DNA of 64,000 nucleotides from a virus (lineage: Duplodnaviria > Heunggongvirae > Uroviricota > Caudoviricetes): the IMG/VR virus record IMGVR_UViG_3300049489_000540; one strand, written 5' to 3'. Positions 27 through 63,427 of the stretch are shown here, piece after piece; position 1 is the stretch's first letter; every line of letters begins with the position of its first letter. Both the position numbers and the translations under genes were made by a program. The notes beneath the pieces were generated by a model. That model saw only the letters and a program-made list of their open reading frames with translations. It did not search any database and was not told the origin of the DNA.

Positions 27-2111
27 ATGCCACAGCTTCCTTCGTATAAAGACGGTCAATGGAATGTTCAGCTTATAAATGTTTACACATTTAGCGCAAA
101 TGATATTCAGCTTATCGGTGGACCTGGCTTCGACTCTGGTTGGATAGGACCACCAAACGGTCCACAAACACGCACCGTCATTAGTAAAATATCGTCAAAG
201 TGCAATATTCAGAAATGTTTTGAAGGTCTATCAAGCAACTCAAGTATCTCAAGCAAATCGAGCAACTCAAGCTCATGGTCATCGTCCAGTAAATCGTCGC
301 AATCGGGCTTTTCAATATCTTCTCTTTCGTCACCAAGTTCAGTTTCCTCACCTAGTTCCTTTTCGTCACCGAGTTCACTTTCATCACCAAGTTCAAAATC
401 GTCTACATCGTCATCAAGTTTCTCAAGTAAATCCAGTAGCTCAAAGTCGAGTAGCTCAAAATCTTCAAGTAGCTCATCTGGACCACAGATTAACGGATAT
501 ACGGTATCTGGTTCGTGTGTTGATGGTCTATTTGTCCAAGCTGGTTACGGTGAATGGAATGGTTCATTTATTTTTGGCGGTAGCTTCCCATACTACACCA
601 GCACACTAGATCCTAATTTCGCTATATTTTTTCATTCGGGCGCTGGTTGTTGGGTTTTAGATTATTACTTGTCATATGCTGGTGATTGTCCATATTGTGG
701 TTACAGTTGTACATATGCATTTACACCACCAGAAGGAACATGGTCATCGTGTGGAATTGGATCCCCGACTGTTACAGCATACCCACCACCGCCACCCCCA
801 CCTCCTGTTGTTGGCTATACGGTAGTTGGATCGGACTCCTGTGATGGTACATATTTGGCGGCTGGATATGGTTATATACAAAGTTGGTCATATTCTTTCA
901 TTCCTGGCGGAACATATCAATACTTTGTCAACCAAGCGAATCCTAATCAAGCAATCATATATGTGCCAGATTGGGGATGCTGGTACATCGACAACTATCT
1001 CTCGTTTACTGCTAATTGTGCATGTGGTTATGATTGCAGTTATTCTCAGACCCCATACTCAGGTATGTGGTATTCGTGTGGAATGGGTTATCCAACCGTA
1101 ACACAAATAACTGATAATAATTCATCAAGCTCCTCAAGTAGCACGTTACAGCAACAGTCATCAAGCAACTCATCCAGTTCATCGTCATCAAGCTCATCAA
1201 GCTCTTCGTCATCAAGCTCATCCAGTTCATCATCAAGTTCACTTGATAATGATGTTATGATCGTTGAATACCGCAACTTTAATGGTTGCGATTTGATTAC
1301 AAAAACATTGTTACCAAACGGTGCTGATGTTGGTTGGTCATGTGGATACACAGGAACATGCGCTTCTCTCACAACCATACCAGTTTCGGCATGTGTTTCT
1401 ATTGATCAAGTATCTATAGACATGAATTGCTTAAGGACAACAGATCCTTCTGGAAGAATATATCTCAATGCATGCTGGGGAACAACCGTTTCACCAAGCT
1501 CGTTTAAGATTGATGTTTGGTGGAATAGCGTTCATCAGACAATCAATGTCACAACACCATTGCAGATGATAACATGCTGTGATAACCAAGTCGCATATAT
1601 CGATTACTACGCAAACGATGTTTACAATCTTGTAAAGCTTAACAGAAAGCCACACATTTCCAATGGACCAACGAATGCTATAGTTACTGCAACACCATCA
1701 GCATACCCAACACAAGATGTCGATGTCATATTAGCACCAACATTTGAATTACCAAACATTTCGATATATGTACCATATCTCGTTGTTGGTGGTTCCTTTG
1801 AAAATGCACTTCCAACATACGATCCTAATATTCTTGTATACGATGAAGAATTTACAGTCAACATATCAGGCAGTAACTATGGAGATTGGATACTTCCTTC
1901 GTATGTGGTTGGTGCTTCCGGTCAGTTTATAAATGCACCAGTTGTTTCTGGACCATATATCGTACCTGATTACGACATCATTATTGAGGTACTTGACCTC
2001 CATCCCGATAATGATTTCGTTATTGATATAAGCACATCGAGCAACTCAAGCTCAAGCGATTCAAGCTCAAGTGATTCAAGCAGTTCGAGTAATTCAAGTT
2101 CATCTAGTTAA
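27..2111 (+). CDS. Ser-rich putative structural/adhesin protein with two tandem ~95-aa Cys/aromatic-rich domains separated by a poly-Pro (P9) linker
   Basis: 694-aa ORF with ATG at 27; poly-Ser low-complexity linkers at both ends; internal duplication GYTVSGSCVDG...CGIGSPTVTAY vs GYTVVGSDSCDG...CGMGYPTVTQI; no catalytic motif seen. Confidence 0.55.
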   Translation: MPQLPSYKDGQWNVQLINVYTFSANDIQLIGGPGFDSGWIGPPNGPQTRTVISKISSKCNIQKCFEGLSSNSSISSKSSNSSSWSSSSKSSQSGFSISSLSSPSSVSSPSSFSSPSSLSSPSSKSSTSSSSFSSKSSSSKSSSSKSSSSSSGPQINGYTVSGSCVDGLFVQAGYGEWNGSFIFGGSFPYYTSTLDPNFAIFFHSGAGCWVLDYYLSYAGDCPYCGYSCTYAFTPPEGTWSSCGIGSPTVTAYPPPPPPPPVVGYTVVGSDSCDGTYLAAGYGYIQSWSYSFIPGGTYQYFVNQANPNQAIIYVPDWGCWYIDNYLSFTANCACGYDCSYSQTPYSGMWYSCGMGYPTVTQITDNNSSSSSSSTLQQQSSSNSSSSSSSSSSSSSSSSSSSSSSSSLDNDVMIVEYRNFNGCDLITKTLLPNGADVGWSCGYTGTCASLTTIPVSACVSIDQVSIDMNCLRTTDPSGRIYLNACWGTTVSPSSFKIDVWWNSVHQTINVTTPLQMITCCDNQVAYIDYYANDVYNLVKLNRKPHISNGPTNAIVTATPSAYPTQDVDVILAPTFELPNISIYVPYLVVGGSFENALPTYDPNILVYDEEFTVNISGSNYGDWILPSYVVGASGQFINAPVVSGPYIVPDYDIIIEVLDLHPDNDFVIDISTSSNSSSSDSSSSDSSSSSNSSSSS

Positions 2112-2138
2112 TAAATATAAATAGTCATAGGAGTTATT

Positions 2139-4394
2139 ATGGCAGACTTCGTAAATTATAGAGGTGTCAGTCACCAAGTTGTATATGTTGACCCAACATT
2201 AGGTTCGGGTCTTAATGACGGAACGACAACGGCTGACGCATTTCAGCAACTTCCACACACGGTTTCCTTGTCTGGAAATGCTCTCTATTTACTTCGTCGT
2301 TCAAATACTCCAGTAATAGCACAAAAAGGTAATTGTCCAAATAGCCACGTTTTGGTTGTCGGTATGCCAGCAACCTCTGGACAAATGTTCTTTACCGATT
2401 TACCAGCAACTGTCAGAAATACATGGGGTCTTGATAGCGAACCTAGTGTTACTGTATTTGTGAGTGGAGCCGCCGCAAATACACCTTGGCGTTTTGGTTT
2501 GTCTGATTCAAACGCTGGTTATGGTTTATTTAATTTGTTCATTCATACATCACCAACCATAAATCAAAAATATGGAATGGTTCACATTTATGGACCAAAT
2601 GTTACTGTTGATAGCTGCACATTTACGATATCTGGAACGCCAATTTCTGGAAATGCATCGTCATCCTTGACTGAATGGACCGGTTTACATATAAGTAATG
2701 GTGATGGCTGTTCCATTAATAATATAGATACTATTTCATATGGTTATGGAGATAGTTATTCGGACCCAAACAGCTATCAAATGCCTAGTGCTTTATTCGT
2801 TGAAAACTACTACTCTGGTGGCATGTCAAATGCATGTATATCAAACTCAACCTTCAGATGCATAACGAACCCATCAGTTAACTCAAGAACATATGGATTG
2901 AATATAAGAGGCTGGTCATATGCCAGTGTATTCAAAAACTTAAAGTTCTACACAAACTTATCGTATACGGGAAATAGTAACTCTTACACACTCATGCGCC
3001 TTGGAAGTATTTCAAATGCATGTGTCGTTGACGGTATTTCTGGATGGTGTGGATTCAATCATAAAAATCCCGCACAGAACCAAACTGGATATGGCATATA
3101 TGTCGATTATGGTGTTAACGCAACAAGCGAAAGCTACATGCACAGAAAAGTTTCAAAGCACACATTTAAAAATATCTACTTCGATGACCAATCAGATTAC
3201 TACGGATGTTTCTGTGGTATTCGTTTAGGTGATTACTGGCAAGATTGCACATTTGATAACATAAAGCTATATTCACCAAATGCATCAAATCTTTTAGGAA
3301 CTCCTATATTTTCTATCGGTGCATACACAAACCATCTTACATTCGATAACATAGATTTAGACGCTGGAAGTAACTTATCACAGCCTATTCCAAATAATAA
3401 CAACATTCATGGTTTATACATTGGTGGTGATATAAACCAGCAAAGATCAGCTAAGAGCTACCTGAAAAATTCAAGAATAAAGTCCAGCAAGTTAGGAATT
3501 TATTCTCTAGGAAGTCTGGATATCAGCAACACATCGGTAACTGGTGGTGTATATGTGTATGGTGATGCTGTAGAATTAAATACTTTGGCAGCACCTCTAT
3601 CAAGCGGAAGATTCTCGTCAGCACCAAATCTTCTATACCATATTGGTGGCTCTGGTGACGAAAGATGGGCAACAAATTCGGTCATAAAAATTAATGAATT
3701 AGTTAATAGAAGTATAATTGGACACTCTATTAATTTCGGATCAGCATTAGTTGCTGTTGAATGTATGTCGGCTGCTGGCGTTTTAAATTCAATTGGCGGT
3801 CCAACATACGATACAACTGTTCCAAATGCTGGTGCAATATATGTGAACAATTTCCCACAAGATGGATACTGGCTTGGTCAAAATGCATGGCATCGCTTTA
3901 GCACATCAGTTGTACAATTTACAACGGCAAATAGCGTAAATTCTGGATTTAGTCTTGAATACATGCAAATTACATCATCGAACTTTACTGGCGCGGTCGA
4001 ACAAGCATTTGAAATATCCCCACCGCCATACAAAGGAAATGAAGTTTCGACCACAACATTAGCAGCACAAAGACAATATAAAGCTGTCTTGTATTTCGCA
4101 ACAAAATACGCTACAGCAGTAACCAGCAGCGAATTGTGGTTCGAGATAGAGATACCAAGTGGAGTTTCTGGAACAGACACCAGAATCATGACCACCAGAG
4201 GAATGCTTGATGGTGTGCAAGTTGATAATACAGGAACCGTATGGCTTGGTGAATCACCACTAAGTATTTACAGGATCGTGTTACCATTCATTCTTGATCG
4301 TCAAGAAAGCATATACACAAGAATATTCTGGAACAAGACATTCGGACCACCGGGCAAGGCATTCATTGCTCCAAGAATAATTATCGAAGAGTAG
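2139..4394 (+). CDS. putative tail spike/fiber-like protein (Asn/Gly/Ser-rich, beta-helix-like repeats)
   Basis: 751-aa ORF 27 nt after the previous gene; many short N/G/S/I-rich repeats consistent with a right-handed beta-helix; function inferred from composition only. Confidence 0.5.
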   Translation: MADFVNYRGVSHQVVYVDPTLGSGLNDGTTTADAFQQLPHTVSLSGNALYLLRRSNTPVIAQKGNCPNSHVLVVGMPATSGQMFFTDLPATVRNTWGLDSEPSVTVFVSGAAANTPWRFGLSDSNAGYGLFNLFIHTSPTINQKYGMVHIYGPNVTVDSCTFTISGTPISGNASSSLTEWTGLHISNGDGCSINNIDTISYGYGDSYSDPNSYQMPSALFVENYYSGGMSNACISNSTFRCITNPSVNSRTYGLNIRGWSYASVFKNLKFYTNLSYTGNSNSYTLMRLGSISNACVVDGISGWCGFNHKNPAQNQTGYGIYVDYGVNATSESYMHRKVSKHTFKNIYFDDQSDYYGCFCGIRLGDYWQDCTFDNIKLYSPNASNLLGTPIFSIGAYTNHLTFDNIDLDAGSNLSQPIPNNNNIHGLYIGGDINQQRSAKSYLKNSRIKSSKLGIYSLGSLDISNTSVTGGVYVYGDAVELNTLAAPLSSGRFSSAPNLLYHIGGSGDERWATNSVIKINELVNRSIIGHSINFGSALVAVECMSAAGVLNSIGGPTYDTTVPNAGAIYVNNFPQDGYWLGQNAWHRFSTSVVQFTTANSVNSGFSLEYMQITSSNFTGAVEQAFEISPPPYKGNEVSTTTLAAQRQYKAVLYFATKYATAVTSSELWFEIEIPSGVSGTDTRIMTTRGMLDGVQVDNTGTVWLGESPLSIYRIVLPFILDRQESIYTRIFWNKTFGPPGKAFIAPRIIIEE

Positions 4395-4398
4395 TAAG

Positions 4399-5814
4399 TT
4401 ATATAAAAGCACTTACGGTTGGGTCACACGCATAGCTGTACCATTCGAAACCAGCGTCATACCTATAATGTTGTAATGATGCTCCACCGGCAACTGGTTG
4501 ACTAAAATAAGTCGTGACTACACGCGAACTTGTAAAACCAATCTTCATAATTTGGAATACAGTTATTTGATATGTCCAACCAGCGGGTAATGTGCCGCTA
4601 AAACATACACAATTAGAGTTCGGTCCATATGTTTGTACGGGTGGACATGGTGCTAAGTTTGTGTTGTTACAGTAAAGAGAAACACTAATAGTACCACGGT
4701 AATTATTTTCCCATGGGGCATTTTCGAATACGGTATAAGAACCAGAATTGTTGTTCATTTCTATTCCAAATGTTCCGTTCATTCGTGGATCGTATTCACT
4801 AGATCCAGCCGTATTAATAGTTACCGATACATAACCAATTGGTGGCATCGACGGACATACTGCTGGTGGAGTAGATGTTGGCGAACATGTTAAGCATGTT
4901 TGGCTAGGCGCAACTGCTGGTTCTCCACATGATCCGGTCGCCCCCGGTCCACTACCAGAATTCCTTGTTAACCAATATATCTTATCATCGGCACATGTTT
5001 CTACATTATTCCAATCTTTTAATGGTTGCTTATTTAAAAGTGGTCCAAGTGGGGCTGATTGATAAACATCCCATATAACCGTCGATCCGCTGCACGCAAC
5101 ACCAGCATTACAAGCAACACGATAGTAATCACAGCAACCTTCACCCGGAGAAATTGTTGGATCAGCCTCGGAAGGAATTGTACAATCACCATCAACCAAA
5201 CACGCAGATCCTTTAACCACTTTAGTTGCTTGACAAGGTGATCCGTCAATTTGCCAACCATGGATCGTGTGGGCATTATCTAGGTCACATGATTTCGTCG
5301 GCACTCCTTGAGTCCATACCGAAGAATTACAATCATATGTTGCCGTATAGAAGTACCAGCATACCAAACCATCACTTGATGGACTACTTGGGTTTGGACT
5401 GCTCGAACTGCTTGGACTACTTGGGCTATTTGGTGATTCACTTTGTGATAAGCTCATCGATTCACTTGGCGACATGCTCTGTGAAATACTTTCACTTGGC
5501 GACATGCTCTGTGAAATACTTTCACTTGGTGATTCGCTTTGTGATTCGCTTTGTGATAAACTTTCACTCTCGGATTGTGAGCTATTACTTGACTCTTGTG
5601 TTCGTCTCCACACATAGACGCAGTAGCAGCAACAACCGTCCGTGTTTTCTGGATGGTCAAAAGGTATATCTGGACATGCTTCCGTATAAATTGGATCTGG
5701 TGGTACAACGGTCCTTGTATAAACACAATTTCCACCAACCCATCCCGTATCAGTACCAGGAACGACTTGATGAGGCTTGACTTTTCTAACAACCAGCTTC
5801 CTAATCCATGCCAT
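4399..5814 (-). CDS. Cys-rich putative adhesin/structural protein with Ser/Glu-rich repeat linker
   Basis: 471-aa ORF convergent with the previous gene; >40 Cys; central linker SESESLSQSESQSESPSESISQSMSPSESISQSMSPSE encoded by tandem DNA repeats. Confidence 0.5.
   Translation of the reverse strand: MAWIRKLVVRKVKPHQVVPGTDTGWVGGNCVYTRTVVPPDPIYTEACPDIPFDHPENTDGCCCYCVYVWRRTQESSNSSQSESESLSQSESQSESPSESISQSMSPSESISQSMSPSESMSLSQSESPNSPSSPSSSSSPNPSSPSSDGLVCWYFYTATYDCNSSVWTQGVPTKSCDLDNAHTIHGWQIDGSPCQATKVVKGSACLVDGDCTIPSEADPTISPGEGCCDYYRVACNAGVACSGSTVIWDVYQSAPLGPLLNKQPLKDWNNVETCADDKIYWLTRNSGSGPGATGSCGEPAVAPSQTCLTCSPTSTPPAVCPSMPPIGYVSVTINTAGSSEYDPRMNGTFGIEMNNNSGSYTVFENAPWENNYRGTISVSLYCNNTNLAPCPPVQTYGPNSNCVCFSGTLPAGWTYQITVFQIMKIGFTSSRVVTTYFSQPVAGGASLQHYRYDAGFEWYSYACDPTVSAFI
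5461..5553. repeat. perfect 30-nt tandem repeat x2 (plus partial third copy) followed by 12-nt x2 repeat, inside the 4399..5814 CDS
   Basis: ttcacttggcgacatgctctgtgaaatact at 5461-5490 and 5491-5520, partial 5521-5529; tgattcgctttg x2 at 5530-5553; in-frame, encodes the Ser-rich linker. Confidence 0.85.
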
Positions 5815-9843: not shown

Positions 9844-11991
9844 TTACTTAAGTCCGTTCGCAGCATCGACTAGCATGATGTAGTTGAGCAGGTCTTTCGT
9901 GGCGACCTTATCTAGCGTAAGGTACTTCATCATGGGATAGGTGCTGGTGACTTGATTGTGGAAGCGCACAACCTCATGTTGGGGGGTGGTCGTTTCATTG
10001 ATCACCTTCACCCTCTTGAGGTTTGCAATGGCTGCGGTGCAGCACGAACCATCCACATACAGCGTACCCAGCGCCAACTTATTCTGCTTGAATTTGATAA
10101 CAGCCTCCAGCCACAGCCGCATGGGCGAATCGGCATGAAGAGCATTTGGATCAATCTTGATGTATGTGTTGTCAACAGCAGTATCAACACCATTACTTCC
10201 TCTGGTCGCCTGATATGTTTCGATATCATTCATAACATCGTCATTATCAACGATTTCGTGCAGCGGCTTCCAGTTTTTTGGATTCAGAAACTTGACATTA
10301 CCAGGCGCGACACCGACAATCTGAATCTTGAATGCGCTCTGCACATCATGCATACTACGGTTATCCATGGTGCGACCATTTCCGAGAATCGCATTCGAAT
10401 GATCATTCTTTTTATCATACAAGAAGTAATAGCCGTGATCGTCATTATTATCGTAATCGAATTCACCACAGACTTCAAACTTCCGACGCCACGAATTCGA
10501 AGCCTTCCACTTATTGATCGTCTTGGTGGGTCTGACATACTGACCCTTCACCCGCTTTGCCTTGACATATCCGCATGTATCGATATCGAACATGGTCGGA
10601 ATGACTTCTTCCAAGTTATTATCACTCAGGAAGCTATCAACATTGTGTCTAGCACCCTTGAAGATAACCATCTGCTGGTTGCGCCAATTCAGACCCAGCT
10701 TGCTGAACGCAAACTTGATGCATGCGACATCGTAGGTCTTGGAAGTATAGAAAACGGGAATGTTAGCCTTCTTCATGTTGACGAACATTTCGATTTGTGC
10801 GGAATCATACTTCTTGCCACACATCTTGTTGTCATAGTCGATAGCGAAGGTCATGCATGACACGGGCATCTTTTTCTTGTCGTATGCATCACCAAAAGCA
10901 TTGCACTTGGGTGCCGAGACGCTGTATACGATCCTTACACCGTTCCATGTCACATCAGTATGGCTATCAAGCCAATTCGCATCACGCAGCAGCTTGACAT
11001 AATTCCATGCGTCAAGGTAGGTCTTTTGCGAATCGATGATGCGGAACAGATGTTCCTTGATGGTCGCAAGTGCCTCATTGAATCGATTGTTGATCTTGAT
11101 CTTCGCATCATCATCGATCTGGAGCGATTCGCGGTTCAGTGTCGGCAGCAATTCACCGATACCGAAGTGAAGGAAGATATTTCCAGCAAACGCCTTGTTG
11201 TTGATGACACTGGAATGGATGGGATACTTGATGCCGTTCACAACGGCATATAGCTCTGATTCGTAGCATCGGCTTGACATGACGAAATCAAACGCCTCAC
11301 AGCGGTGCATCCAATTGCGCTCAGGATACGTCAGTTCATTTTCAGCAGCACCCGTAATGGTCGGGCGAACCTTCCAGAATTCGGTCTTGGCAAGGACGGC
11401 ATTCCGTACTTCACCGAAATCCTCGGGCTTGACGGGAATGGTGATGGAAGTGCCAGTGTGCTGATCACCCTCGGGATCGGATGAATTCACGATATGCGGC
11501 TCACCGAGTTCAAGCAGCTTGATGGAGAAGTCATCCCGCTTCACCACAGCATAAAGGCGGCGAACCAGATTGTCATCTTCACGAACGACCGTCTTGACGG
11601 TAAACTGATCAGTGTAGGCGAGGGGGATTTTCGAACCGATGCCGAATGTACCATCGCTCTTATCATCCTCACGCTTCGTGGAATTACCAATCAGCACGAA
11701 CACCGTATGCATACGGTGCGGTGAGATACCAATGCCATGGTCGGAAATGATAAGGTTATTGTCGAGTGTGCTTGGCACTTGGATCTGAATAGGAACATCG
11801 GGATTACCAGACTCCACATTCGCATCGCGGGCATTGCTTGCGATTTCCTGCACCATCGTGATTTTCGGATACTGATAAACACTCTTCACAAGGTGATGGA
11901 TGATGATGCGCGGATCACCGACTCCCATATCGGTTTCAACCATTTCACCGCCGCCCACGAACAGGTCATTGATTTTGAGGGACATCTTCAT
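9844..11991 (-). CDS. rIIA: rIIA-like protein with N-terminal GHKL (histidine-kinase-like) ATPase domain
   Basis: 715 aa; GHKL motifs EIASNARDA (N-box), DHGIGIS (G1), GTFGIGSK (G2); IQVP...LD pattern as in T4 rIIA. Confidence 0.9.
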   Translation of the reverse strand: MKMSLKINDLFVGGGEMVETDMGVGDPRIIIHHLVKSVYQYPKITMVQEIASNARDANVESGNPDVPIQIQVPSTLDNNLIISDHGIGISPHRMHTVFVLIGNSTKREDDKSDGTFGIGSKIPLAYTDQFTVKTVVREDDNLVRRLYAVVKRDDFSIKLLELGEPHIVNSSDPEGDQHTGTSITIPVKPEDFGEVRNAVLAKTEFWKVRPTITGAAENELTYPERNWMHRCEAFDFVMSSRCYESELYAVVNGIKYPIHSSVINNKAFAGNIFLHFGIGELLPTLNRESLQIDDDAKIKINNRFNEALATIKEHLFRIIDSQKTYLDAWNYVKLLRDANWLDSHTDVTWNGVRIVYSVSAPKCNAFGDAYDKKKMPVSCMTFAIDYDNKMCGKKYDSAQIEMFVNMKKANIPVFYTSKTYDVACIKFAFSKLGLNWRNQQMVIFKGARHNVDSFLSDNNLEEVIPTMFDIDTCGYVKAKRVKGQYVRPTKTINKWKASNSWRRKFEVCGEFDYDNNDDHGYYFLYDKKNDHSNAILGNGRTMDNRSMHDVQSAFKIQIVGVAPGNVKFLNPKNWKPLHEIVDNDDVMNDIETYQATRGSNGVDTAVDNTYIKIDPNALHADSPMRLWLEAVIKFKQNKLALGTLYVDGSCCTAAIANLKRVKVINETTTPQHEVVRFHNQVTSTYPMMKYLTLDKVATKDLLNYIMLVDAANGLK

Positions 11992-25710: not shown

Positions 25711-26204
25711 CGTTTAGGATGCGTTCGTATAATATACGAATCTACTTCAACATCCTCAAGTCGCTCGAAGTAGCCGATCCATGAACACCATATTTTCCCA
25801 TCATATGGCGTTTTCGGTGTGAATGAATATGACTCTTTTCTATTCTTCCTGGTGTCGTAGTGTTTTTCTATCTCTCTTGCCAATTCCTTCGCCATGTCAT
25901 AGGTATCATAACATGCAACGAACACAAATTTTCCGCTGGTGGTTCCGAATGTGCTTCCCGTCTGATACCGTGCTGTGACGAGATAGCCATCATCACCAAC
26001 TTTAGGCTCAAAAAACGCCTTGACTTCCTCGGCGTAATTGTCCTTTTCGGTGTATAGATGTTTAATCGTCAAGTCAATATATTCGGGTTCGTGGCTTGCC
26101 CATGGACCATCATCCATGGCTTCGCCACCACGCCGAGATTCAGAATAATTGACATACAATGGGTGTACGATCATAGCAAAGATCCAATAAACATCATCTG
26201 CCAC
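25707..26204 (-). CDS. hypothetical protein
   Basis: 165-aa ORF. Confidence 0.5.
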   Translation of the reverse strand: MADDVYWIFAMIVHPLYVNYSESRRGGEAMDDGPWASHEPEYIDLTIKHLYTEKDNYAEEVKAFFEPKVGDDGYLVTARYQTGSTFGTTSGKFVFVACYDTYDMAKELAREIEKHYDTRKNRKESYSFTPKTPYDGKIWCSWIGYFERLEDVEVDSYIIRTHPKR

Positions 26205-26228
26205 ACTTGAAGTATGACAGATGATAGG

Positions 26229-26891
26229 TTAAACGGGCGCAGTAACGGGCGCTACTTCGACCGGCACTTCGACCGGCTTGGTTGCCACTTCGACCGGCAC
26301 GGTCGGAGCCGCCGTAGGAGCCTCGTCCAGCCAGCCGCGACCGCCGCGCTTACGAAGCGGAAGGTCCACTCCACGCTGACGCAGACGGTGTACCTTCTGG
26401 ATGACGGTGCCCTCGGTGGTCTTGAGCGCCTTGGCGATTTCCAAGTACGAAGCGCCAGCATTCCACATTTCGATCAGGCGCTCTTCCTTGCGCTTCGTCT
26501 TTTCCGATCTGATGCGTAGTGCGACCTCGCGCCGATCAACTTCGACGCCCATGATCTGGCGCAGCTTGAATACCTCGTCGTAGCCAAGGTTCAGACCGCC
26601 CTCATACAGCTTCGCCTTCAATTCCTCTTGGGTCAGCCCGAGACGGAGGCACACGCCTTCCAGATAGAATTTGCGCTTGTCACTGATGATGGTGTCGTGC
26701 TGCCGTTCAACCTCCAAGTGGCGGCAGTAGCGGTCTATGACCCACCACTCAAGCCCAAGACGCTCACGGCATTCCGTGGCGAGGCGGTTGCGGGCAGCTT
26801 CAACGCTATCGACATTCAAGGTCTTAAGTGCCTCGGCAATGTTGCGACTGCGCGTATCAGGGGTATTACTCATAGTATTCCTACCTTTCAC
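26229..26891 (-). CDS. DNA-binding regulator with sigma-70 region-4/LuxR-type HTH (paralog of 46841..47749)
   Basis: 220 aa; HTH IEMWNAGASYLEIAKALKTTEGTVIQKVHRLRQRG; N-terminal region alignable with the 47749 paralog; GC-rich; Pro/Val/Ala-rich tail. Confidence 0.65.
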   Translation of the reverse strand: MKGRNTMSNTPDTRSRNIAEALKTLNVDSVEAARNRLATECRERLGLEWWVIDRYCRHLEVERQHDTIISDKRKFYLEGVCLRLGLTQEELKAKLYEGGLNLGYDEVFKLRQIMGVEVDRREVALRIRSEKTKRKEERLIEMWNAGASYLEIAKALKTTEGTVIQKVHRLRQRGVDLPLRKRGGRGWLDEAPTAAPTVPVEVATKPVEVPVEVAPVTAPV

Positions 26892-51701: not shown

Positions 51702-53006
51702 CTATTTTAGAGGGTCTATTAAGACCCTCTTTAGCTCTTGTTTTATTTCTTCCCATGTTTGTTTATAGGTAAAATAGAGAAGCTGATATCCATTGTCAGC
51801 AGCCCATGCTTTCTTAATAGCATCATGTCGTTGCCGTTCTTCAAAATTCAATTGAGCATCTTCAGTGGATGAACCAAACACTGGTCTAAAATGCTGCTCA
51901 CCTTGATACTCAATAAGCAACTTGCGCTGATCAATATAAAAATCAAATGGTAACGGTCGAATGTTTCTACATTCTTCAAACTTCTTCTGGTGTACATATG
52001 TAATTTTATGCCTATCTAAAAACTCAAATATGTTCTGCTCTCCTAATGATGACGCACATCGAGGACAACCATATCCTTGTAAAATACTAGTTGGACAAGT
52101 CACCCATTCATGCCCATCAATTAAACACTTCCATGCTATTTTTATTCCAGAATTAACAACATTACCAAGCCGCCGAATGTGCATATCAGCAATTCTCTCA
52201 TCTACACGCTCATTCGTTAGTGGAAGATTACCAGCACACTTCGGACATCCACTTTTATACGATACACTACTTGGAGTAGCCATCCACTCATGCCCATCCA
52301 CTAAACATCTAAATAAAATTCTACTACCAGAATTTATAATGTTACCAAGCCGCTGAATCTGCTTATCCTTAAGCCGCTCGTCCATAATCTCGTTCGTTAT
52401 TGGAAGTTTACCAGCACACTTCGGACATCCTTTACCTTTCGATATATCATTTGGTCGAGCCATCCACTCAAGACCATCAATCGTACATTTCCATAATACG
52501 CATGTTTCTGTATCAACAACCTCACCAAGACGCACGATAGGTCGATTCTTAATCCTCTTGTCCATAATCTCATTTGTTAGCCGCCGTGCTTGTGAGGCTT
52601 GCTTACGCATTAACTTACCACATTTCGGACATCCCTTACCCATCGATATATCATTTGGACTTGCCATCCATTCATGTCCATCAATCGTACACTTCCATAG
52701 TACCTTTGTTTTGCTTGTCGTAACATCACCAAGCCGCTGAATTGGTCTATCCTTAAGCCGCTCATCCATGATTTCGTTCGTTACATGAGCCGTACCAGCA
52801 CACTTCGGACAACCATGACCTTTTGAAACTTCGGATGGTGTAGTCATCCATTCATAACCATCAATTAAACATTTAAATAAAGTCTTTGCCTTACCATGAG
52901 TAACATCACCAAGCCGCTGAATAGGTCTACCTTTAAGTCGTGTATCGATTATCTCATTGGTTAGCTTCCTCATCCATGTATTATAGGAAACCGTCCTAGG
53001 TTTCAA
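51702..53006 (-). CDS. putative endonuclease: five tandem ~55-aa zinc-ribbon repeats plus C-terminal restriction-endonuclease-like (PD-(D/E)xK-type) domain
   Basis: 434 aa; repeat unit TNEIMDERLKDRPIQRLG...W(K/R)C.IDGHEW...GCPKCAG x5; C-term PFDFYIDQRKLLIEYQGEQHF; homing-endonuclease-like architecture inferred. Confidence 0.55.
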   Translation of the reverse strand: MKPRTVSYNTWMRKLTNEIIDTRLKGRPIQRLGDVTHGKAKTLFKCLIDGYEWMTTPSEVSKGHGCPKCAGTAHVTNEIMDERLKDRPIQRLGDVTTSKTKVLWKCTIDGHEWMASPNDISMGKGCPKCGKLMRKQASQARRLTNEIMDKRIKNRPIVRLGEVVDTETCVLWKCTIDGLEWMARPNDISKGKGCPKCAGKLPITNEIMDERLKDKQIQRLGNIINSGSRILFRCLVDGHEWMATPSSVSYKSGCPKCAGNLPLTNERVDERIADMHIRRLGNVVNSGIKIAWKCLIDGHEWVTCPTSILQGYGCPRCASSLGEQNIFEFLDRHKITYVHQKKFEECRNIRPLPFDFYIDQRKLLIEYQGEQHFRPVFGSSTEDAQLNFEERQRHDAIKKAWAADNGYQLLYFTYKQTWEEIKQELKRVLIDPLK

Positions 53007-60352: not shown

Positions 60353-60558
60353 TATATATCGGAATTGTTTCATCGAAAAGCCAGCAAGACGGTAGTGGCA
60401 CATTCAAAGCTATCTACCCCGAAGGGCAAATCGCCATCGTCAATGACAATGGTACCTACGGTGCATACGTTGCTGGGCGAACCGAAGGCATACGCATCGA
60501 AGGTTATCAGGTTTTTGAGAACGCTCAAGATGCATTATCATGGGTGATGCAAAAGTGA
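60349..60558 (+). CDS. hypothetical small protein
   Basis: 69 aa, ATGA overlap. Confidence 0.45.
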   Translation: MIYIGIVSSKSQQDGSGTFKAIYPEGQIAIVNDNGTYGAYVAGRTEGIRIEGYQVFENAQDALSWVMQK

Positions 60559-60610
60559 TTGACACGGTACGGATTTCGTTTACATTACTCCCCTCTCTAC
60601 AAGGAACCGC

Positions 60611-60988
60611 ATGAAGAAATCAGCAGGCAAAGGACACTTCACAGCAACACCACTTGAGTTCCAACTCGATGGTAAGACATATACTTATGCCGGTCGTGGG
60701 CGCTGGTCAGTCCAGCTTGCGACCCGCATTGCCACCGACAAGAAGGCTCCTGTCAAGGCAGAAGATGGAACTTGGACCTGGCGTGATGCCACACCGTCCG
60801 AACTCGCATCGGCTGAGAAGCTGACTGCCAAGGTCGCCAAGTCGTTGGAGGACAAGGCTGCGAAGGCTACTGCCCGCATCGCTCGTAAGGCTGCCAAGGG
60901 TCGCAAGAAGGCGACCGAGGAAGTGCCCGTCGAAGCTGCTGCCGAAGTAGCCGAAGCCGCTCCCGAAGCCGCCAAAGCTGGGGCTTGA
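60611..60988 (+). CDS. hypothetical protein with Ala/Lys-rich (histone-H1-like) C-terminal tail
   Basis: 125 aa; tail AKVAKSLEDKAAKATARIARKAAKGRKKATEE. Confidence 0.5.
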   Translation: MKKSAGKGHFTATPLEFQLDGKTYTYAGRGRWSVQLATRIATDKKAPVKAEDGTWTWRDATPSELASAEKLTAKVAKSLEDKAAKATARIARKAAKGRKKATEEVPVEAAAEVAEAAPEAAKAGA

Positions 60989-61019
60989 TATTTTCTGATG
61001 GTGTGTTAGACTACGCATG

Positions 61020-61320
61020 TCAACATTCCGATAAGCAATGACCGCCGAGTGGGATCAGCCCGCTAGGTCGCTAGAGGATGGCGAACAAGCCCATCGGTCC
61101 ATTAGACTTTAGATCCGGTCGATGTTGACGCTCTTTTTCAACCCAAGGCTAGGTTCAGCAAATCCTAAAATAAAGGACGCCGTAAGGGCACAACGGTCTT
61201 CGATTTCTCCGTGGGCAACGCCAGGAAACTGGTAAAAGCCCTAAATGAAGTAGGCAACTAGCCTGTTTTTCTCTCTCATAAGAATCCGTCAGCAATCCCG
61301 CTCATAGCGGATTCTGTTAA
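61020..61320 (+). ncRNA. candidate structured non-coding RNA in the 350-nt ORF-free gap upstream of the vWA/TROVE-like gene
   Basis: no ORF; long-range complementarity catgtcaacat (61027) with atgttgacg (61121) and local hairpin aatcccgct-cat-agcggatt (61296-61316); strand and extent not determined. Confidence 0.25.
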
Positions 61321-61338
61321 CAAAGGAATATACTACCT

Positions 61339-62709
61339 ATGAGTATCAAGACTGTTACTGCCAATGGCGCTGCTACCTTCAAGTCCACGGGTGATGCGCT
61401 CGTCAACCTCTTCTTCCAGATCGGCGCGAGCCGCAACAATCCAGACGCTGCCAAGCGTCTGTTCGATGCTGCGATGGCTGATGATCTGCTCAAGGCAACC
61501 GCCATTCTCTGCTGGGCGCGTGACGCTCGCGGTGGTGCTGGTGAGCGTAATATCTTCCGTGTGCTGGTGAAGGAGCTTGTCGATTCCGACGAGTCGCTGG
61601 CTCGCAAGGTCGTGAACCTTGTGCCGCGCATCGGTCGTTTCGATGACCTCACCGTGTTCTACGGCACCAAGGTGGAAGCCGACGCCATCAATGTGTGGGT
61701 CGGTGCGCTTCGTTCCGACAATGCGCTCGCTGCGAAGTGGGCGGATCGTAAGGACAAGAAGCTCCAGCGTGCGCTGCGCATGAACGAGGCTGCGCTGCGT
61801 AAGTTCCTGTCGAACATGCGCAAGCACACCATCGTGGAAAACGCGATGTGCCAGAACGAGTGGTCCAACATCGAGTACGGCAAGCTGCCGTCCGTCGCTG
61901 GCATGCGCTACTCCAAGGCGTTCAAGAAGCACGATGAAACCCGCTATGCGGAGTTCATGGGCAACAAGAACACCAAGGTCAATGCTGGTGTCGCGTACCC
62001 ATACGATGTGTACCGTCTGCTCATGGCTGGTCAGAGCGATGCAACCGTGGTCGCAGCGGCTACCAAGTATTGGGAGAATCTGAACAAGCTGTCGGTGGCT
62101 GGCAACATCCTCTGCATGGCTGACGTTTCGGGTTCGATGGCTGGTGCGATAGCATCGGGTTCCGTCACATGCATGGATGTGTCGATTTCCTTGTCCGTGT
62201 TCTTGTCGCAACAGATCAAGGGCGCGTTCAACGGCAAGCTGATGACATTCAGTGAGTCCCCGACGCTGGTGAATCTGCCGTCCAAGGGCAATCTGCTTGA
62301 TCTGTTCCAGTTCACCAGCCGCATGAATTGGGGCATGAACACGAACCTTGAGGCAGCGTTCGCTGCGATTCTCAAGGAGGCGGTGCGCTTCAAGGTCAAG
62401 CCAGCCGACATGCCGACCATGCTGCTGGTTCTCTCCGACATGGAGTTCGACCGTGCGGCTGGTGGAGCGACCCTGAGCGATTCCATGAAGGCGCAGTACA
62501 AGGCTGCTGGCTACGAGCCGCCGAAGATGTGCTGGTGGAATCTGAATGGCAGCGGAAAGAATTTCCCTGTCATGAAGAACGAGAAGGGTTCCTGTCTGGT
62601 GTCTGGTTTCAGCCCGAAGGTGCTGGAAGCGGTCATCGCTGCCAAGGAATTCACGCCGATCAGCGTGGTTGAGGAAGCGATCAAGCCGTACCTTGACCTC
62701 TTGAAGTGA
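61339..62709 (+). CDS. vWA-domain protein (MIDAS motif DxSGS) with N-terminal alpha-helical domain, possibly TROVE/Ro60-like
   Basis: 456 aa; MIDAS CMADVSGSMAG near residue 264; SD aaaggaa. Confidence 0.55.
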   Translation: MSIKTVTANGAATFKSTGDALVNLFFQIGASRNNPDAAKRLFDAAMADDLLKATAILCWARDARGGAGERNIFRVLVKELVDSDESLARKVVNLVPRIGRFDDLTVFYGTKVEADAINVWVGALRSDNALAAKWADRKDKKLQRALRMNEAALRKFLSNMRKHTIVENAMCQNEWSNIEYGKLPSVAGMRYSKAFKKHDETRYAEFMGNKNTKVNAGVAYPYDVYRLLMAGQSDATVVAAATKYWENLNKLSVAGNILCMADVSGSMAGAIASGSVTCMDVSISLSVFLSQQIKGAFNGKLMTFSESPTLVNLPSKGNLLDLFQFTSRMNWGMNTNLEAAFAAILKEAVRFKVKPADMPTMLLVLSDMEFDRAAGGATLSDSMKAQYKAAGYEPPKMCWWNLNGSGKNFPVMKNEKGSCLVSGFSPKVLEAVIAAKEFTPISVVEEAIKPYLDLLK

Positions 62710-62714
62710 TCGTT

Positions 62715-62752
62715 GCAGCTACGATGGGCAACTGTCGTAGCTGCTTCGTTTA
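62715..62752 (+). terminator. rho-independent terminator after the vWA gene
   Basis: gcagctacga-tgggcaact-gtcgtagctgc ttcgttt. Confidence 0.6.
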
Positions 62753-62753
62753 T

Positions 62754-62839
62754 GCCCTTGTGGCGGAATGGTATACGCAAAAGTTTTAAAAACTTTCGGG
62801 GGAAACCCCATGTCGGTTCGAGTCCGACCACCGGCACCA
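62754..62839 (+). tRNA. tRNA-Leu: tRNA-Leu(UAA)-like gene (type II, long variable arm); acceptor stem has two mismatches
   Basis: anticodon stem aaagt/acttt with loop TTTAAAA (anticodon TAA); variable arm ggggg-aaa-cccc; T-arm gtcgg-TTCGAGT-ccgac; 3' caccggc-A-CCA; 5' strand gcccttg pairs only 5/7. Confidence 0.55.
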
Positions 62840-62848
62840 TTTCGTCTA

Positions 62849-62875
62849 TTGACTTCTCCTAGATCATGGTAGAGT
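62849..62875 (+). promoter_or_regulatory. promoter TTGACTT-N15-TAGAGT, 6 nt before the ATG (leaderless)
   Basis: ttgacttctcctagatcatggtagagt acaccc ATG(62882). Confidence 0.55.
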
Positions 62876-62881
62876 ACACCC

Positions 62882-63175
62882 ATGATCGAAGATACCGACC
62901 TCTACAACACCCGCCGCGCCGGTTCCGAAAAGACCGAAGACGGTGATCGCTACTTCTCCTTCGAAGTTCGCGCTAAGGGTTTCGCTGGGGTTCGCGCCTT
63001 TCATGCCGCTGCTGATCGCTTCATTCGGGATTGGACCGCTTGCGGCGATGGCTGGCTCAAGGGCACCTACGGCATCCTGGTCGATGGGGCGGAAATCGCC
63101 ATCGAAGCTCGCAACGACGAGTGGGCTTCCCGTCAGCAGGAAATCGAAGATCACGCTCTCGGATACTGGAGATAA
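62882..63175 (+). CDS. hypothetical protein
   Basis: 97-aa ORF. Confidence 0.5.
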   Translation: MIEDTDLYNTRRAGSEKTEDGDRYFSFEVRAKGFAGVRAFHAAADRFIRDWTACGDGWLKGTYGILVDGAEIAIEARNDEWASRQQEIEDHALGYWR

Positions 63176-63178
63176 ACC

Positions 63179-63427
63179 ATGAGTACCAAATCCTCGATCG
63201 AGTCCGTCTACAAGGTCTATGATGACGGCGAAGGCGTTTCCATCAACGTCGAAAGCGACTGTGATGCGCTGGGATTTGTCCGCATCACAACCGCCGATAA
63301 TCCGAAGTCGGTCGAGTTTTGGGGCAAGATCGACTTCACCATGGCTCCCGAGATTGCTGAAAATCTCGCCAAGGCACTTCTCAAAAAGGTCAAGGACATT
63401 CGGGACGAGGAAAAGACCAATGGATGA
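63179..63427 (+). CDS. hypothetical protein
   Basis: 82-aa ORF. Confidence 0.5.
   Translation: MSTKSSIESVYKVYDDGEGVSINVESDCDALGFVRITTADNPKSVEFWGKIDFTMAPEIAENLAKALLKKVKDIRDEEKTNG

What the first reader, a model, noticed from the sequence alone, without database searches (positions are those of the whole stretch)
60989..62839. A vWA (MIDAS) / possibly TROVE-like protein sits between a 350-nt ORF-free structured gap and a tRNA, resembling a Ro60-Y RNA-tRNA module
61339..62709 has a clear MIDAS motif (DVSGSMAG) after a ~260-aa helical domain. It is preceded by a 350-nt gap with no ORF but with long-range complementarity (61027/61121) and a local hairpin. It is followed by a terminator and a tRNA-Leu-like gene. 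Bacterial and phage Ro60 (TROVE plus vWA) orthologues are typically encoded next to Y-RNA-like ncRNAs that carry tRNA-like modules. The arrangement here makes it worth testing whether this is an RNA-binding vWA/TROVE protein with a partner ncRNA.
Basis: inference. Interest (0 to 1): 0.6.

Follow-up and report, generated by a model that had tools for sequence, protein, structure and literature searches.

The report
Phage Ro60-like protein with Y-like RNAs
A phage gene for a distant, ring-shaped relative of the Ro60 RNA-binding protein sits directly behind three conserved structured RNA modules and in front of a tRNA gene. Two of the modules carry a 'stem + CAGCAA' signature that recurs beside this gene family in most of the very different phages sampled, which points to an undescribed kind of Ro/Y-RNA particle.

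Summary
ORF 61339-62709 is Pfam DUF2828+DUF7788 and PHROG 850. Sequence searches do not find TROVE, but its AlphaFold model (pLDDT 88) matches only Ro60/Rsr structures over the full length, and the MIDAS motif is invariant.

The 350-nt gap is not an empty leader. A conserved extended -10 promoter drives three stem-closed RNA modules:
- M1, 61019-61129.
- M2, 61146-61264.
- M3, 61281-61315.

M2 and M3 share one signature: a 7-8 bp stem, then 1-3 nt, then CAGCAA. A stem scan found 58 such modules in 52 kb within 1 kb of DUF2828 genes on the gene strand, against about 0.1 per kb elsewhere. They occur upstream or downstream of the gene in Listeria, Staphylococcus, Enterococcus, Mycobacterium, Campylobacter, Vibrio and Felix O1 phages. 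In three cultured relatives the module encloses a YrlA-type tRNA-like domain (sub-threshold Rfam hits in two, read by eye in the third).

The window's own RNAs are not YrlA and match nothing in Rfam. The most likely reading is a divergent Ro60 paralogue with its own Y-like RNAs, and M3 may be an autoregulatory operator. Binding and function are inferred, not shown. The Ro-like annotation is already known; the RNA signature appears to be new.

The parts
60985..61012 (+). Sigma-70-like promoter with extended -10 (TTGATA, 16 nt, TGtTAGACT). The predicted start is about 61018-61020, at the first base of the M1 stem.
   Evidence: Promoter scan. The same TTGAnn / TGnTAnAnT arrangement is conserved at the equivalent place in L001, L003, L005, L009, L011 and L012 (alignment).
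61019..61129 (+). RNA module M1. It is a stem-closed domain (GUCAACAU / AUGUUGAC) with internal hairpins. It carries UAAGCAAUGACC where the other modules have CAGCAA.
   Evidence: The closing stem and two inner hairpins are kept by compensatory changes in L003 and L011 (9 of 26 pairs have double changes, but only 3 sequences). Close relatives L001, L005, L009 and L012 carry a different stem-closed 5' domain at this place. No Rfam match.
61146..61264 (+). RNA module M2 (large Y-like RNA). Its elements are:
- P1: AGGCUAG (61146-61152) pairs with CUAGCCU (61258-61264).
- Signature CAGCAA at 61156-61161.
- P1b: CAGC pairs with GUAG (61250-61253).
- Hairpins 61163-61177 and 61179-61189 (GUAA loop).
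- Conserved hairpin 61193-61212 with loop UCUUCGAUUUCU.
- Hairpin 61213-61241 with an inner GAAA loop.
A GUUUUU run follows at 61265-61270.
   Evidence: 13 homologues were aligned (A4). On the stated structure 91% of cells pair, and 18 cells show a change on both sides against 4.6 in shuffles (0 of 500 shuffles reach this). Slid controls give 22-46% paired. CM R1 scores this copy 89.6 bits. Six copies found by DNA pattern alone all adjoin a DUF2828 gene. MFE z = -2.4.
61281..61317 (+). RNA module M3 (mini module). The stem AGAAUCCG (61281-61288) pairs with CGGAUUCU (61308-61315). CAGCAA lies at 61290-61295, and GU follows the stem. It ends 21 nt before the start codon and 5 nt before the Shine-Dalgarno sequence. 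It is a candidate operator.
   Evidence: The stem covaries in the relatives: GAUUCCG/CGGAAUC in L005, GAUUCGG/CCGAAUC in L009 and L010, GAUGCAG/CUGUAUC in L011. It is the only significant hit of the generic model R2 in all 64 kb (22.4 bits, E 0.005, filters off). z = -4.8. A mini module directly before the start codon recurs in L007, L008, L014, L026, L043, L045, L076, L081 and L082.
61323..61327 (+). Shine-Dalgarno-like AAGGA, 11 nt before the ATG.
   Evidence: Read directly from the sequence. It is aligned with AAGGA or AGGAG in the relatives.
61339..62709 (+). Gene for a 456-aa Ro60-fold protein. It has a helical TROVE-like ring domain (about residues 1-246) and a vWA domain with a complete MIDAS motif (D262, S264, S266, T335, D367). 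It belongs to Pfam DUF2828 + DUF7788 and PHROG 850.
   Evidence: Pfam and PHROG scans. MIDAS residues are invariant in 49 homologues. AF2 model pLDDT 88, pTM 0.88. Foldseek top 8 are all Ro60/Rsr/phage Ro60. 695 phage records encode a homologue.
62715..62744 (+). 13-bp GC-rich hairpin after the stop codon, with a weak U tract. It is a terminator-like or processing/stability element. No promoter fits between it and the tRNA.
   Evidence: Terminator scan. Fold -25.2 kcal/mol, z = -7.4. A hairpin at this place is present in L001, L010, L011 and L012 with different sequences.
62754..62839 (+). tRNA-Leu(UAA) gene with encoded CCA. In this window the acceptor stem has two mismatches (C4.C69, U5.C68).
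   Evidence: ARAGORN. Rfam tRNA 49.7 bits with two non-canonical pairs marked. tRNA-Leu(UAA) follows the gene in all 8 related loci. L001 has the intact stem GCCGGUG/CACCGGC.

Best explanation
The locus is one transcription unit of a large phage. In order it holds a strong promoter, three structured RNA modules (M1, M2, M3), the gene for a divergent Ro60-fold protein (a TROVE-like helical ring plus a vWA/MIDAS domain), a hairpin, and tRNA-Leu.

I propose the following steps.
1. The protein binds RNAs that carry a short closing stem followed on its 5' strand by (A/U)CAGCAA. This would play the role that GGUCCGA plays in animal Y RNAs and GNCGAA plays in bacterial YrlA.
2. M2 is a stable Y-like partner RNA whose variable inner hairpins serve as an effector or tether domain.
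3. M3 is the same recognition element in minimal form. It sits just before the ribosome-binding site, so protein binding there would feed back on translation of its own mRNA.
4. By analogy with Rsr-YrlA-PNPase, and given the constant neighbourhood of tRNA genes, the particle acts on structured RNAs, possibly tRNAs, during infection. It may work by recruiting a host exoribonuclease, and it may counter host defence.

What is shown: the fold, the MIDAS motif, conservation and covariation of the RNAs, and their linkage to the gene.
What is inferred: protein-RNA binding, RNA processing, autoregulation and the cellular target.
For: Protein:
- Ro60-only full-length structural matches from a confident model.
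- Weak vWA_Ro60 and phage TROVE sequence signals.
- Invariant MIDAS residues.

RNA is real:
- Blocks in the gap are nearly identical in relatives whose protein is only 58-67% identical.
- Covariation in P1 and in the inner hairpin.
- A conserved promoter.

Linkage to the gene:
- All 6 M2-type copies found by DNA pattern alone lie next to a DUF2828 gene of 37-41% identity.
- M2 lies upstream of the gene in most loci but directly downstream of the stop codon in L043 and L045.
- Stem+CAGCAA modules: 58 in 52 kb within 1 kb of the gene on its strand, 27 in 230 kb elsewhere on that strand, 25 in 282 kb on the opposite strand, and 9 in 282 kb of shuffles.
- A model trained on some phages finds modules next to the gene in 4 of 7 held-out phages and nowhere else.

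Y-RNA character:
- In mycobacteriophage Acquire49 and Enterococcus phage EA1 the module encloses a sub-threshold Rfam YrlA match (39.8 and 47.8 bits against a gathering score of 69; E 2e-5 and 8e-8).
- In Vibrio phage MS02 and in L026, T-arm and D-arm sequences inside the module were read by eye.

Literature:
- The Bas63 Ro60-like gp130 lies upstream of tRNAs and counters the Ppl defence (PMC11482910).
- Listeria CKA15_055 is Rsr-like by HHpred, and Y RNAs were proposed for it (PMC12282133).
- Thermus phage Ro60 binds two Yrl RNAs encoded upstream of its gene and forms complexes with host PNPase (PMC12135203).
Against: - No expression or binding data exist for this phage.
- The window RNAs match no Rfam family, YrlA and Y_RNA included, at E up to 10.
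- M2 has no D-arm, and its UUCGAU loop has 9-12 nt, not a 7-nt T-loop.
- M1 lacks CAGCAA.
- The whole-gap folding energy is ordinary.
- The stem scan selects for pairing, so pair counts on A6 are circular. Only the enrichment, the strand bias and the held-out test are independent.
- No module was detected beside the gene in 3 of the 13 cultured phages sampled (Aeromonas AsFcp_4, Serratia BF, Citrobacter Ci1).
- The protein is only 11-15% identical to Ro60, and its central cavity and RNA-contact residues were not examined.
Confidence: 0.62

Rival explanations
1. The gap is a purely cis-acting 5' leader of the DUF2828 mRNA, such as an attenuator or riboswitch-like element. On this view the M2 closing stem plus its U-run acts as a conditional terminator, M3 controls ribosome access, and no separate RNA partner exists.
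For: - M2 ends in CUAGCCU followed by GUUUUU.
- No terminator separates the modules from the ORF, so they are co-transcribed.
- M3 abuts the Shine-Dalgarno sequence.
- A mini module directly before the start codon is common.
Against: - The U-run is absent in L033, L043 and L045, which have CUGUUAAA.
- M2 lies downstream of the stop codon in L043 and L045. All modules lie downstream in the Staphylococcus, Mycobacterium, Felix O1 and Klebsiella phages.
- Modules come in tandem arrays of 2-4, some with their own promoter, as in Listeria cka15.
- Some modules contain tRNA-like YrlA domains.
- A 7-bp stem enclosing 105 nt is not a typical intrinsic terminator.
Confidence: 0.12
2. The modules are RNA processing or stability punctuation for a tRNA/mRNA operon, for example RNase E, RNase III or RNase P entry sites. 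They would be recognised by host enzymes, and they sit beside the Ro-like gene only because that gene lies in the tRNA region.
For: - In Felix O1 the four modules are interleaved with tRNA genes.
- DUF2828 genes usually adjoin tRNA clusters.
- Published work shows that YrlA RNAs are substrates of tRNA enzymes (PMC4201824).
Against: - The same signature is kept in phages of Firmicutes, Actinobacteria, Proteobacteria and Campylobacterota, whose processing enzymes differ. The only shared neighbour is the DUF2828 gene.
- In the window clade and in Staphylococcus phage S-CoN_Ph11 the modules are not next to tRNA clusters.
- Within tRNA arrays most tRNAs have no flanking module.
Confidence: 0.12
3. 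The conserved blocks are DNA-level elements, such as protein-binding sites, origin-like repeats or remnants of mobile repeats, rather than RNA.
For: They are short repeated inverted repeats in an ORF-free region beside a homing-endonuclease insertion site. In L003 a DUF723 gene lies between the modules and the Ro-like gene.
Against: - There is a strict strand bias relative to the gene.
- G-U wobble pairs are tolerated only in the RNA sense. One example is the GGUUCG/CGAGCC stem in L012. Another is the invariant G.U pair of P1b.
- Stem sequences differ between copies while the single-stranded CAGCAA is invariant, which is the opposite of a mobile repeat.
- A conserved promoter lies immediately upstream.
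Confidence: 0.04

Closest known systems
Ro60/Rsr with YrlA-type Y RNAs in bacteria and phages (Chen et al. 2014, PMC4201824; Thermus phage phiLo Ro60 with Yrl1/Yrl2, PMC12135203; Rfam RF02553)
   Same: - A ring-shaped helical domain plus a vWA/MIDAS protein fold.
- One to several small structured RNAs encoded beside the gene on the same strand.
- Each RNA is closed by a stem with a short conserved motif on the 5' strand.
- In relatives of this family the RNA encloses a T-arm / stem / D-arm tRNA-like domain that the YrlA model detects.
   Different: - The protein is not detected by Pfam TROVE. It falls in DUF2828/DUF7788 and is only 11-15% identical to solved Ro60s.
- The stem-proximal motif is CAGCAA, not GNCGAAN0-1G.
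- The window's RNAs score nothing with YrlA and lack a D-arm.
- A minimal copy sits at the ribosome-binding site.
Phage DUF2828 / PHROG 850 'RNA-binding protein' / 'Ro-like RNA binding protein' genes (e.g. Felix O1 gp42, mycobacteriophage cluster L gp54, Listeria CKA15_055)
   Same: The window protein is a full-length member (PHROG 850, E 5e-124). It is 30-40% identical to the proteins of cultured phages. The gene neighbourhood with tRNAs is the same.
   Different: The closest cultured phage protein is only 40% identical. The window belongs to an uncultured clade known only from metagenomes. The partner RNAs of this family had been suggested in the literature but not defined (PMC12282133, PMC11482910).
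Autogenous translational operators that mimic the protein's main RNA target (e.g. ribosomal-protein leaders, T4 RegA/gp32-type control)
   Same: A minimal copy of the presumed binding element lies immediately upstream of the protein's own Shine-Dalgarno sequence in many lineages.
   Different: This rests on position only. No binding or repression data exist, and in several phages all modules lie downstream of the gene.

Membership tests
Ro60 / TROVE proteins | Sequence match to the Pfam TROVE domain (PF05731) | tested here: not met
   A Pfam scan at E up to 1 gives DUF7788, DUF2828, a chance DUF3573 hit and vWA_Ro60 at E 0.089. TROVE is not found. A profile search against PDB sequences gives the phage TROVE protein at only E 0.17.
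Ro60 / TROVE proteins | Fold: an alpha-helical repeat ring followed by a vWA domain | tested here: met
   The AF2 model has pLDDT 88. The Foldseek top 8 PDB hits are all Ro60/Rsr/phage Ro60, with about 500 aligned columns and TMq 0.39-0.67. The next hits match the vWA domain only.
Ro60 / TROVE proteins | MIDAS motif (DxSxS...T...D) in the vWA domain | tested here: met
   D262, S264, S266, T335 and D367 are invariant in 49 homologues.
Ro60 / TROVE proteins | Binds Y RNA on the outer surface and single-stranded ends in the central cavity | not testable with these tools
   This needs biochemistry or a complex structure. Only genomic linkage to structured RNAs is shown.
DUF2828/DUF7788 (PHROG 850) | Pfam PF11443 and PF25043 above their gathering scores, and a full-length PHROG 850 match | tested here: met
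   75.3 bits against a cut-off of 29, and 154.4 bits against 27.1. PHROG 850 scores 415.7 bits over residues 4-449.
YrlA (Rfam RF02553) for the gap RNAs | Covariance-model score at or above the gathering score (69 bits) | tested here: not met
   No YrlA or Y_RNA hit at E up to 10 in 60500-63200. Relatives reach 35.8-47.8 bits, which is also below the gathering score.
YrlA (Rfam RF02553) for the gap RNAs | tRNA-like domain with a T-arm and a D-arm | tested here: not met
   M2 has one hairpin with a UUCGAU-containing loop of 9-12 nt and no D-arm. T and D arms are present in modules of L026, L074, L078 and L082.
YrlA (Rfam RF02553) for the gap RNAs | GNCGAAN0-1G motif near the 5' end | tested here: not met
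   The invariant motif is CAGCAA (C15, G17, C18, A19 and A20 invariant in 48 modules). The YrlA consensus is shown.
YrlA (Rfam RF02553) for the gap RNAs | Encoded adjacent to a Ro60 orthologue on the same strand | tested here: met
tRNA-Leu | tRNA covariance model above the gathering score, a long variable arm, and a fully paired acceptor stem | tested here: inconclusive
   49.7 bits against a cut-off of 29, anticodon UAA and a long variable arm. However, 2 of the 7 acceptor pairs are mismatched in the window, unlike in L001.
Intrinsic terminator (62715-62744) | A GC-rich hairpin followed directly by a U-rich tract | tested here: inconclusive
   The stem has 13 bp, but the tail UUCGUUUAUG is interrupted and the tRNA starts 9 nt later with no promoter between them.

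The most novel reading that the evidence does not exclude
DUF2828 proteins are a second, phage-wide lineage of Ro60. They would have their own class of Y-like RNAs, recognised through a closing stem plus CAGCAA. The RNAs would be modular:
- minimal hairpins;
- M2-type RNAs with a UUCGAU hairpin;
- YrlA-type tRNA mimics;
- long pseudo-tRNAs.

One minimal copy would double as a translational operator of the protein's own mRNA. The particle would serve tRNA or structured-RNA surveillance, or counter-defence, during infection.
Probability: 0.45. Interest if true: 0.75.

Novelty: new variant of a known kind. Interest (0 to 1): 0.62.

Why it matters
Homologues of this protein are encoded in 695 of about 50,700 deposited phage genomes. 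These include model and therapy-relevant phages such as Felix O1-like, Listeria P100-like and mycobacteriophage cluster L, as well as staphylococcal, enterococcal and Campylobacter phages. Published work has reached only 'Ro60-like, perhaps with Y RNAs'.

A defined, searchable RNA signature (stem + CAGCAA) gives concrete candidate partner RNAs and a candidate recognition element. It also gives a candidate autoregulatory site. This makes the biochemistry directly testable: gel shifts, RIP-seq and mutagenesis of six nucleotides. It also offers a handle on why large phages couple a Ro-type protein to their tRNA sets, and on how one such protein counters a defence system.

It would also correct annotation. 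In several deposited genomes the modules are currently called as tiny hypothetical proteins.

Tried and rejected
- Thermodynamic stability of the whole gap gave no signal (z = -1.3 and -0.7).
- Rfam at E up to 10 found only the tRNA. The gap RNAs are therefore not Y_RNA, YrlA, a riboswitch, ROOL, GOLLD or any other curated family.
- blastn of the region against 50,697 phage genomes found no DNA match.
- The single-protein viral-contig scan gave only 32-35% relatives.
- The block-B pattern found nothing in viral contigs.
- In metagenome contigs 14 stretches matched the block-B pattern. Four of these are real copies beside a DUF2828 gene: L014, L019, L026, and L015, which is the L005 contig again. 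The rest lack block A and the gene and look like chance.
- The block-A pattern gave 45 viral hits, about what chance predicts. Only 3 close the stem, and all 3 lie next to the gene.
- The local hairpin AGGC/GCCU plus U-run was rejected as a terminator, because it is broken in L003, L005 and L012 while the long-range P1 covaries.
- A first generalised stem scan with a 6-bp window and an obligatory G lost the true sites and was replaced.
- Pair counting on the 48-module alignment A6 was not used as evidence, because the modules had been selected for pairing.
- R2 cannot span the 105-nt interior of M2, so M2 is supported by R1 only.
- The sequence search of the single protein against PDB gave nothing useful.
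- A paper search for 'DUF2828' returned only unrelated plant and tardigrade papers.
- The supplementary tables of Chen et al. 2014 are not held. I therefore could not check whether any DUF2828-type phage was in their YrlA list.
Full report
**1. What is in the sequence**

The window is the early-type region of a large uncultured phage. It has an rIIA-like gene at 9844-11991 (-), an HNH endonuclease at 51702-53006 (-) and many small ORFs.

At the locus in question, ORF 61339-62709 (+) encodes 456 aa with DVSGSMAG at residues 262-269. Upstream, 60989-61338 has no + strand ORF of 40 aa or more. Downstream lie a 13-bp hairpin (62715-62744) and tRNA-Leu(UAA) at 62754-62839. The long-range pairing is at 61019-61026 / 61122-61129.

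**2. The protein**

- Pfam assigns DUF2828 (E 6e-21) and DUF7788 (E 3.5e-45). vWA_Ro60 reaches only E 0.089, and TROVE is not detected.
- PHROG 850 'RNA-binding protein' matches end to end (E 5e-124).
- 695 deposited phage genomes encode a homologue of 26-40% identity. Several are annotated 'Ro-like RNA binding protein'.
- A 49-sequence alignment shows invariant D262, S264, S266, T335 and D367, which is a complete MIDAS motif. It also shows an invariant arginine- and glycine-rich patch at R61, R64, G66, G68 and R70.
- The AlphaFold2 model is confident (pLDDT 88, pTM 0.88).
- Its eight best PDB matches are all Ro60: Xenopus, human, the Deinococcus Rsr and the Thermus phage phiLo protein. They align over about 500 columns (TMq up to 0.67). 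After them come only isolated vWA domains.
- A profile search of PDB sequences also puts the phiLo TROVE protein first, at E 0.17.

Conclusion: the protein has the Ro60 fold, but it is a separate and very divergent sequence family.

**3. The gap is conserved structured RNA**

Contigs of relatives with 58-88% protein identity all have a 300-415-nt ORF-free gap before the gene and tRNA-Leu(UAA) after it. Within the gap, blocks are nearly identical although the proteins have diverged.

A TTGAnn / TGnTAnAnT promoter is conserved at the 5' edge. Three stem-closed modules follow.

- M1 (61019-61129) is shared with L003 and L011 and has compensatory changes in its closing stem. L001, L005, L009 and L012 carry a different 5' domain at this place.
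- M2 (61146-61264) has a 7-bp P1 (AGGCUAG/CUAGCCU). Compensated variants are GGCUGG/CCAGCC and GGUUCG/CGAGCC. It also has a P1b (CWGC/GUAG) and an inner hairpin whose stem covaries freely around the loop YUUCGAUUUC.
- On 13 M2 sequences, 91% of cells pair and 18 cells show a change on both sides, against 4.6 in shuffles (0 of 500). Slid controls give 22-46% paired.
- M3 (61281-61315) is a small hairpin whose stem also covaries. It folds far better than shuffles (z = -4.8).

**4. Linkage to the gene, independent of position**

Pattern searches that used only RNA blocks recovered six further M2-type copies: L014, L019, L026, L033, L043 and L045. Each lies beside a DUF2828 gene of only 37-41% identity. 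In L043 and L045 the RNA lies just after the stop codon, followed by a terminator and a tRNA. This argues against a simple 5' leader.

The covariance model R1 also picked up short tandem copies in other loci. These revealed a generic signature shared by M2 and M3:
- a 7-9-bp stem, usually starting (A/U)AG and ending CU;
- then 1-3 nt;
- then (A/U)CAGCAA;
- with the 3' strand followed by G(U).

A stem scan found this signature in tandem arrays of one to four on the gene strand beside the DUF2828 gene in Felix O1, mycobacteriophage Acquire49, Listeria cka15, Campylobacter F352, Staphylococcus S-CoN_Ph11 and Enterococcus EA1. It also found it in Sinorhizobium phiM7, Vibrio MS02, Bacillus FADO and a Klebsiella phage.

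Densities:

| Region | Modules | Sequence scanned |
|---|---|---|
| Within 1 kb of the gene, gene strand | 58 | 52 kb |
| Elsewhere on the gene strand | 27 | 230 kb |
| Opposite strand | 25 | 282 kb |
| Shuffled sequence | 9 | 282 kb |

A model (R2) built from 48 modules found hits only next to the gene, on its strand, in 4 of 7 held-out phages. In the whole 64-kb window its only significant hit is M3. No module was seen in Aeromonas AsFcp_4, Serratia BF or Citrobacter Ci1. Ci1 has two 115-nt pseudo-tRNAs whose inserts carry ACAGCAA and UUCAGCAU.

**5. Why these are Y-like RNAs**

- In Acquire49 the middle of three modules downstream of the 'Ro-like' gene is a full-length sub-threshold YrlA match (39.8 bits, E 2e-5). 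It is closed by UGGACUC/GAGUCCA, with CAGCAA after the 5' strand.
- In Enterococcus EA1 two of three modules are YrlA matches (47.8 and 35.8 bits).
- In Vibrio MS02 and in L026, modules contain T-arm and D-arm sequences in the YrlA order.
- The YrlA consensus carries GNCGAA where these RNAs carry CAGCAA (PMC4201824).

The family thus looks like Ro/Y-RNA systems in architecture but has a different stem-proximal motif. The window's own M2 has no D-arm and no Rfam match, so it is not a YrlA member.

**6. Mechanism proposed**

The following is inferred, not shown.

- The protein recognises stem+CAGCAA.
- M2, and perhaps M1, is a stable partner RNA with an effector domain.
- M3 lies 5 nt from the Shine-Dalgarno sequence. 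A mini module at this position recurs in at least nine other lineages, so M3 may be an operator for feedback control.
- The constant neighbourhood of tRNA genes, an RtcB-type ligase in Listeria, and an RNA ligase and a CCA-adding enzyme in Serratia BF point to action on tRNAs or other structured RNAs.
- Published data on relatives are compatible with recruitment of host exoribonucleases or with counter-defence: phiLo Ro60 with PNPase, and Bas63 gp130 against Ppl (PMC12135203, PMC11482910).

**7. Rivals**

- A pure cis leader is disfavoured by the downstream copies, the tandem arrays, the separate promoters and the tRNA-like content.
- Host-RNase punctuation is disfavoured because the only shared neighbour across hosts is the DUF2828 gene.
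- DNA-level repeats are disfavoured by the strand bias, the G-U pairs and the pattern of variable stems around an invariant single-stranded motif.

**8. Novelty**

The Ro-like nature of the protein family is already in annotations and in two recent papers, which also guessed at Y RNAs. I found neither a definition of the RNAs nor the CAGCAA signature in Rfam 15 or in the searchable literature. I rate the finding a new variant of a known kind. Binding and function remain to be shown.

Noticed in passing
window 62754-62839: The tRNA-Leu(UAA) has two acceptor-stem mismatches (GCCCUUG against CACCGGC). The 88%-identity relative L001 has the intact stem GCCGGUG/CACCGGC. The window copy may be impaired or decaying, or this may be an assembly variant.
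   Followed up: partly
L003 3215-3997: In one relative a 260-aa DUF723 protein gene is inserted between the RNA modules and the Ro-like gene. It may be a homing-endonuclease type, though that was not tested. A new mini module is retained just before the Ro-like start (3946-3981).
   Followed up: no
L075 2422-2973 (Listeria phage cka15, record 26,195-26,746): The most abundant transcript of phage CKA15 is annotated as three tiny CDS, CKA15_059-061. Its authors discussed it as a possible sRNA or Y RNA. It matches Rfam ROOL RNA over the full model (90.1 bits, E 5e-17, just under the gathering score of 99.1).
   Followed up: partly
L072 4855-4969 and 4976-5089 (Citrobacter phage Ci1): Two pseudo-tRNAs of about 115 nt lie downstream of the DUF2828 gene. 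They keep the acceptor, D and T arms, but the anticodon arm is replaced by a long insert carrying ACAGCAA or UUCAGCAU. They may be a non-permuted form of the Y-like RNA.
   Followed up: no
L073 4713-5545 (Salmonella phage Felix O1 FO1a): Four stem+ACAGCAA modules, all starting GAAGACC, are interleaved with the tRNA genes downstream of gp42. The region is unannotated in the record.
   Followed up: partly
L077 5480-5827 (Staphylococcus phage S-CoN_Ph11): Of the three tandem modules after the Ro-like gene, the first lies within a tiny annotated 'hypothetical protein' CDS and the third touches the next by 2 nt. These CDS calls are therefore probably mis-annotations of RNA.
   Followed up: no
window 60559-60586, 60985-61012, 62848-62876: Similar TTGAYW, 16-17 nt, (TG)nTAnAnT promoter-like sites precede successive small transcription units. 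This suggests a set of strong host-sigma-70-type early promoters in this phage.
   Followed up: no
window 61019-61129 against L001 3660-3780, L005, L009, L012: The first RNA module exists in two unrelated-looking forms among close relatives. Both are closed by a covarying stem and both begin with ...UAAGCA(A/G)YGACC. It looks like modular swapping of an RNA domain.
   Followed up: partly
window 9844-11991 (-), 51702-53006 (-): There is an rIIA-like protein (PHROG 612, E 2e-60) and an HNH/homing endonuclease (PHROG 559, E 3e-88). Three ORFs of 471-751 aa at 27-5814 have no PHROG match.
   Followed up: no
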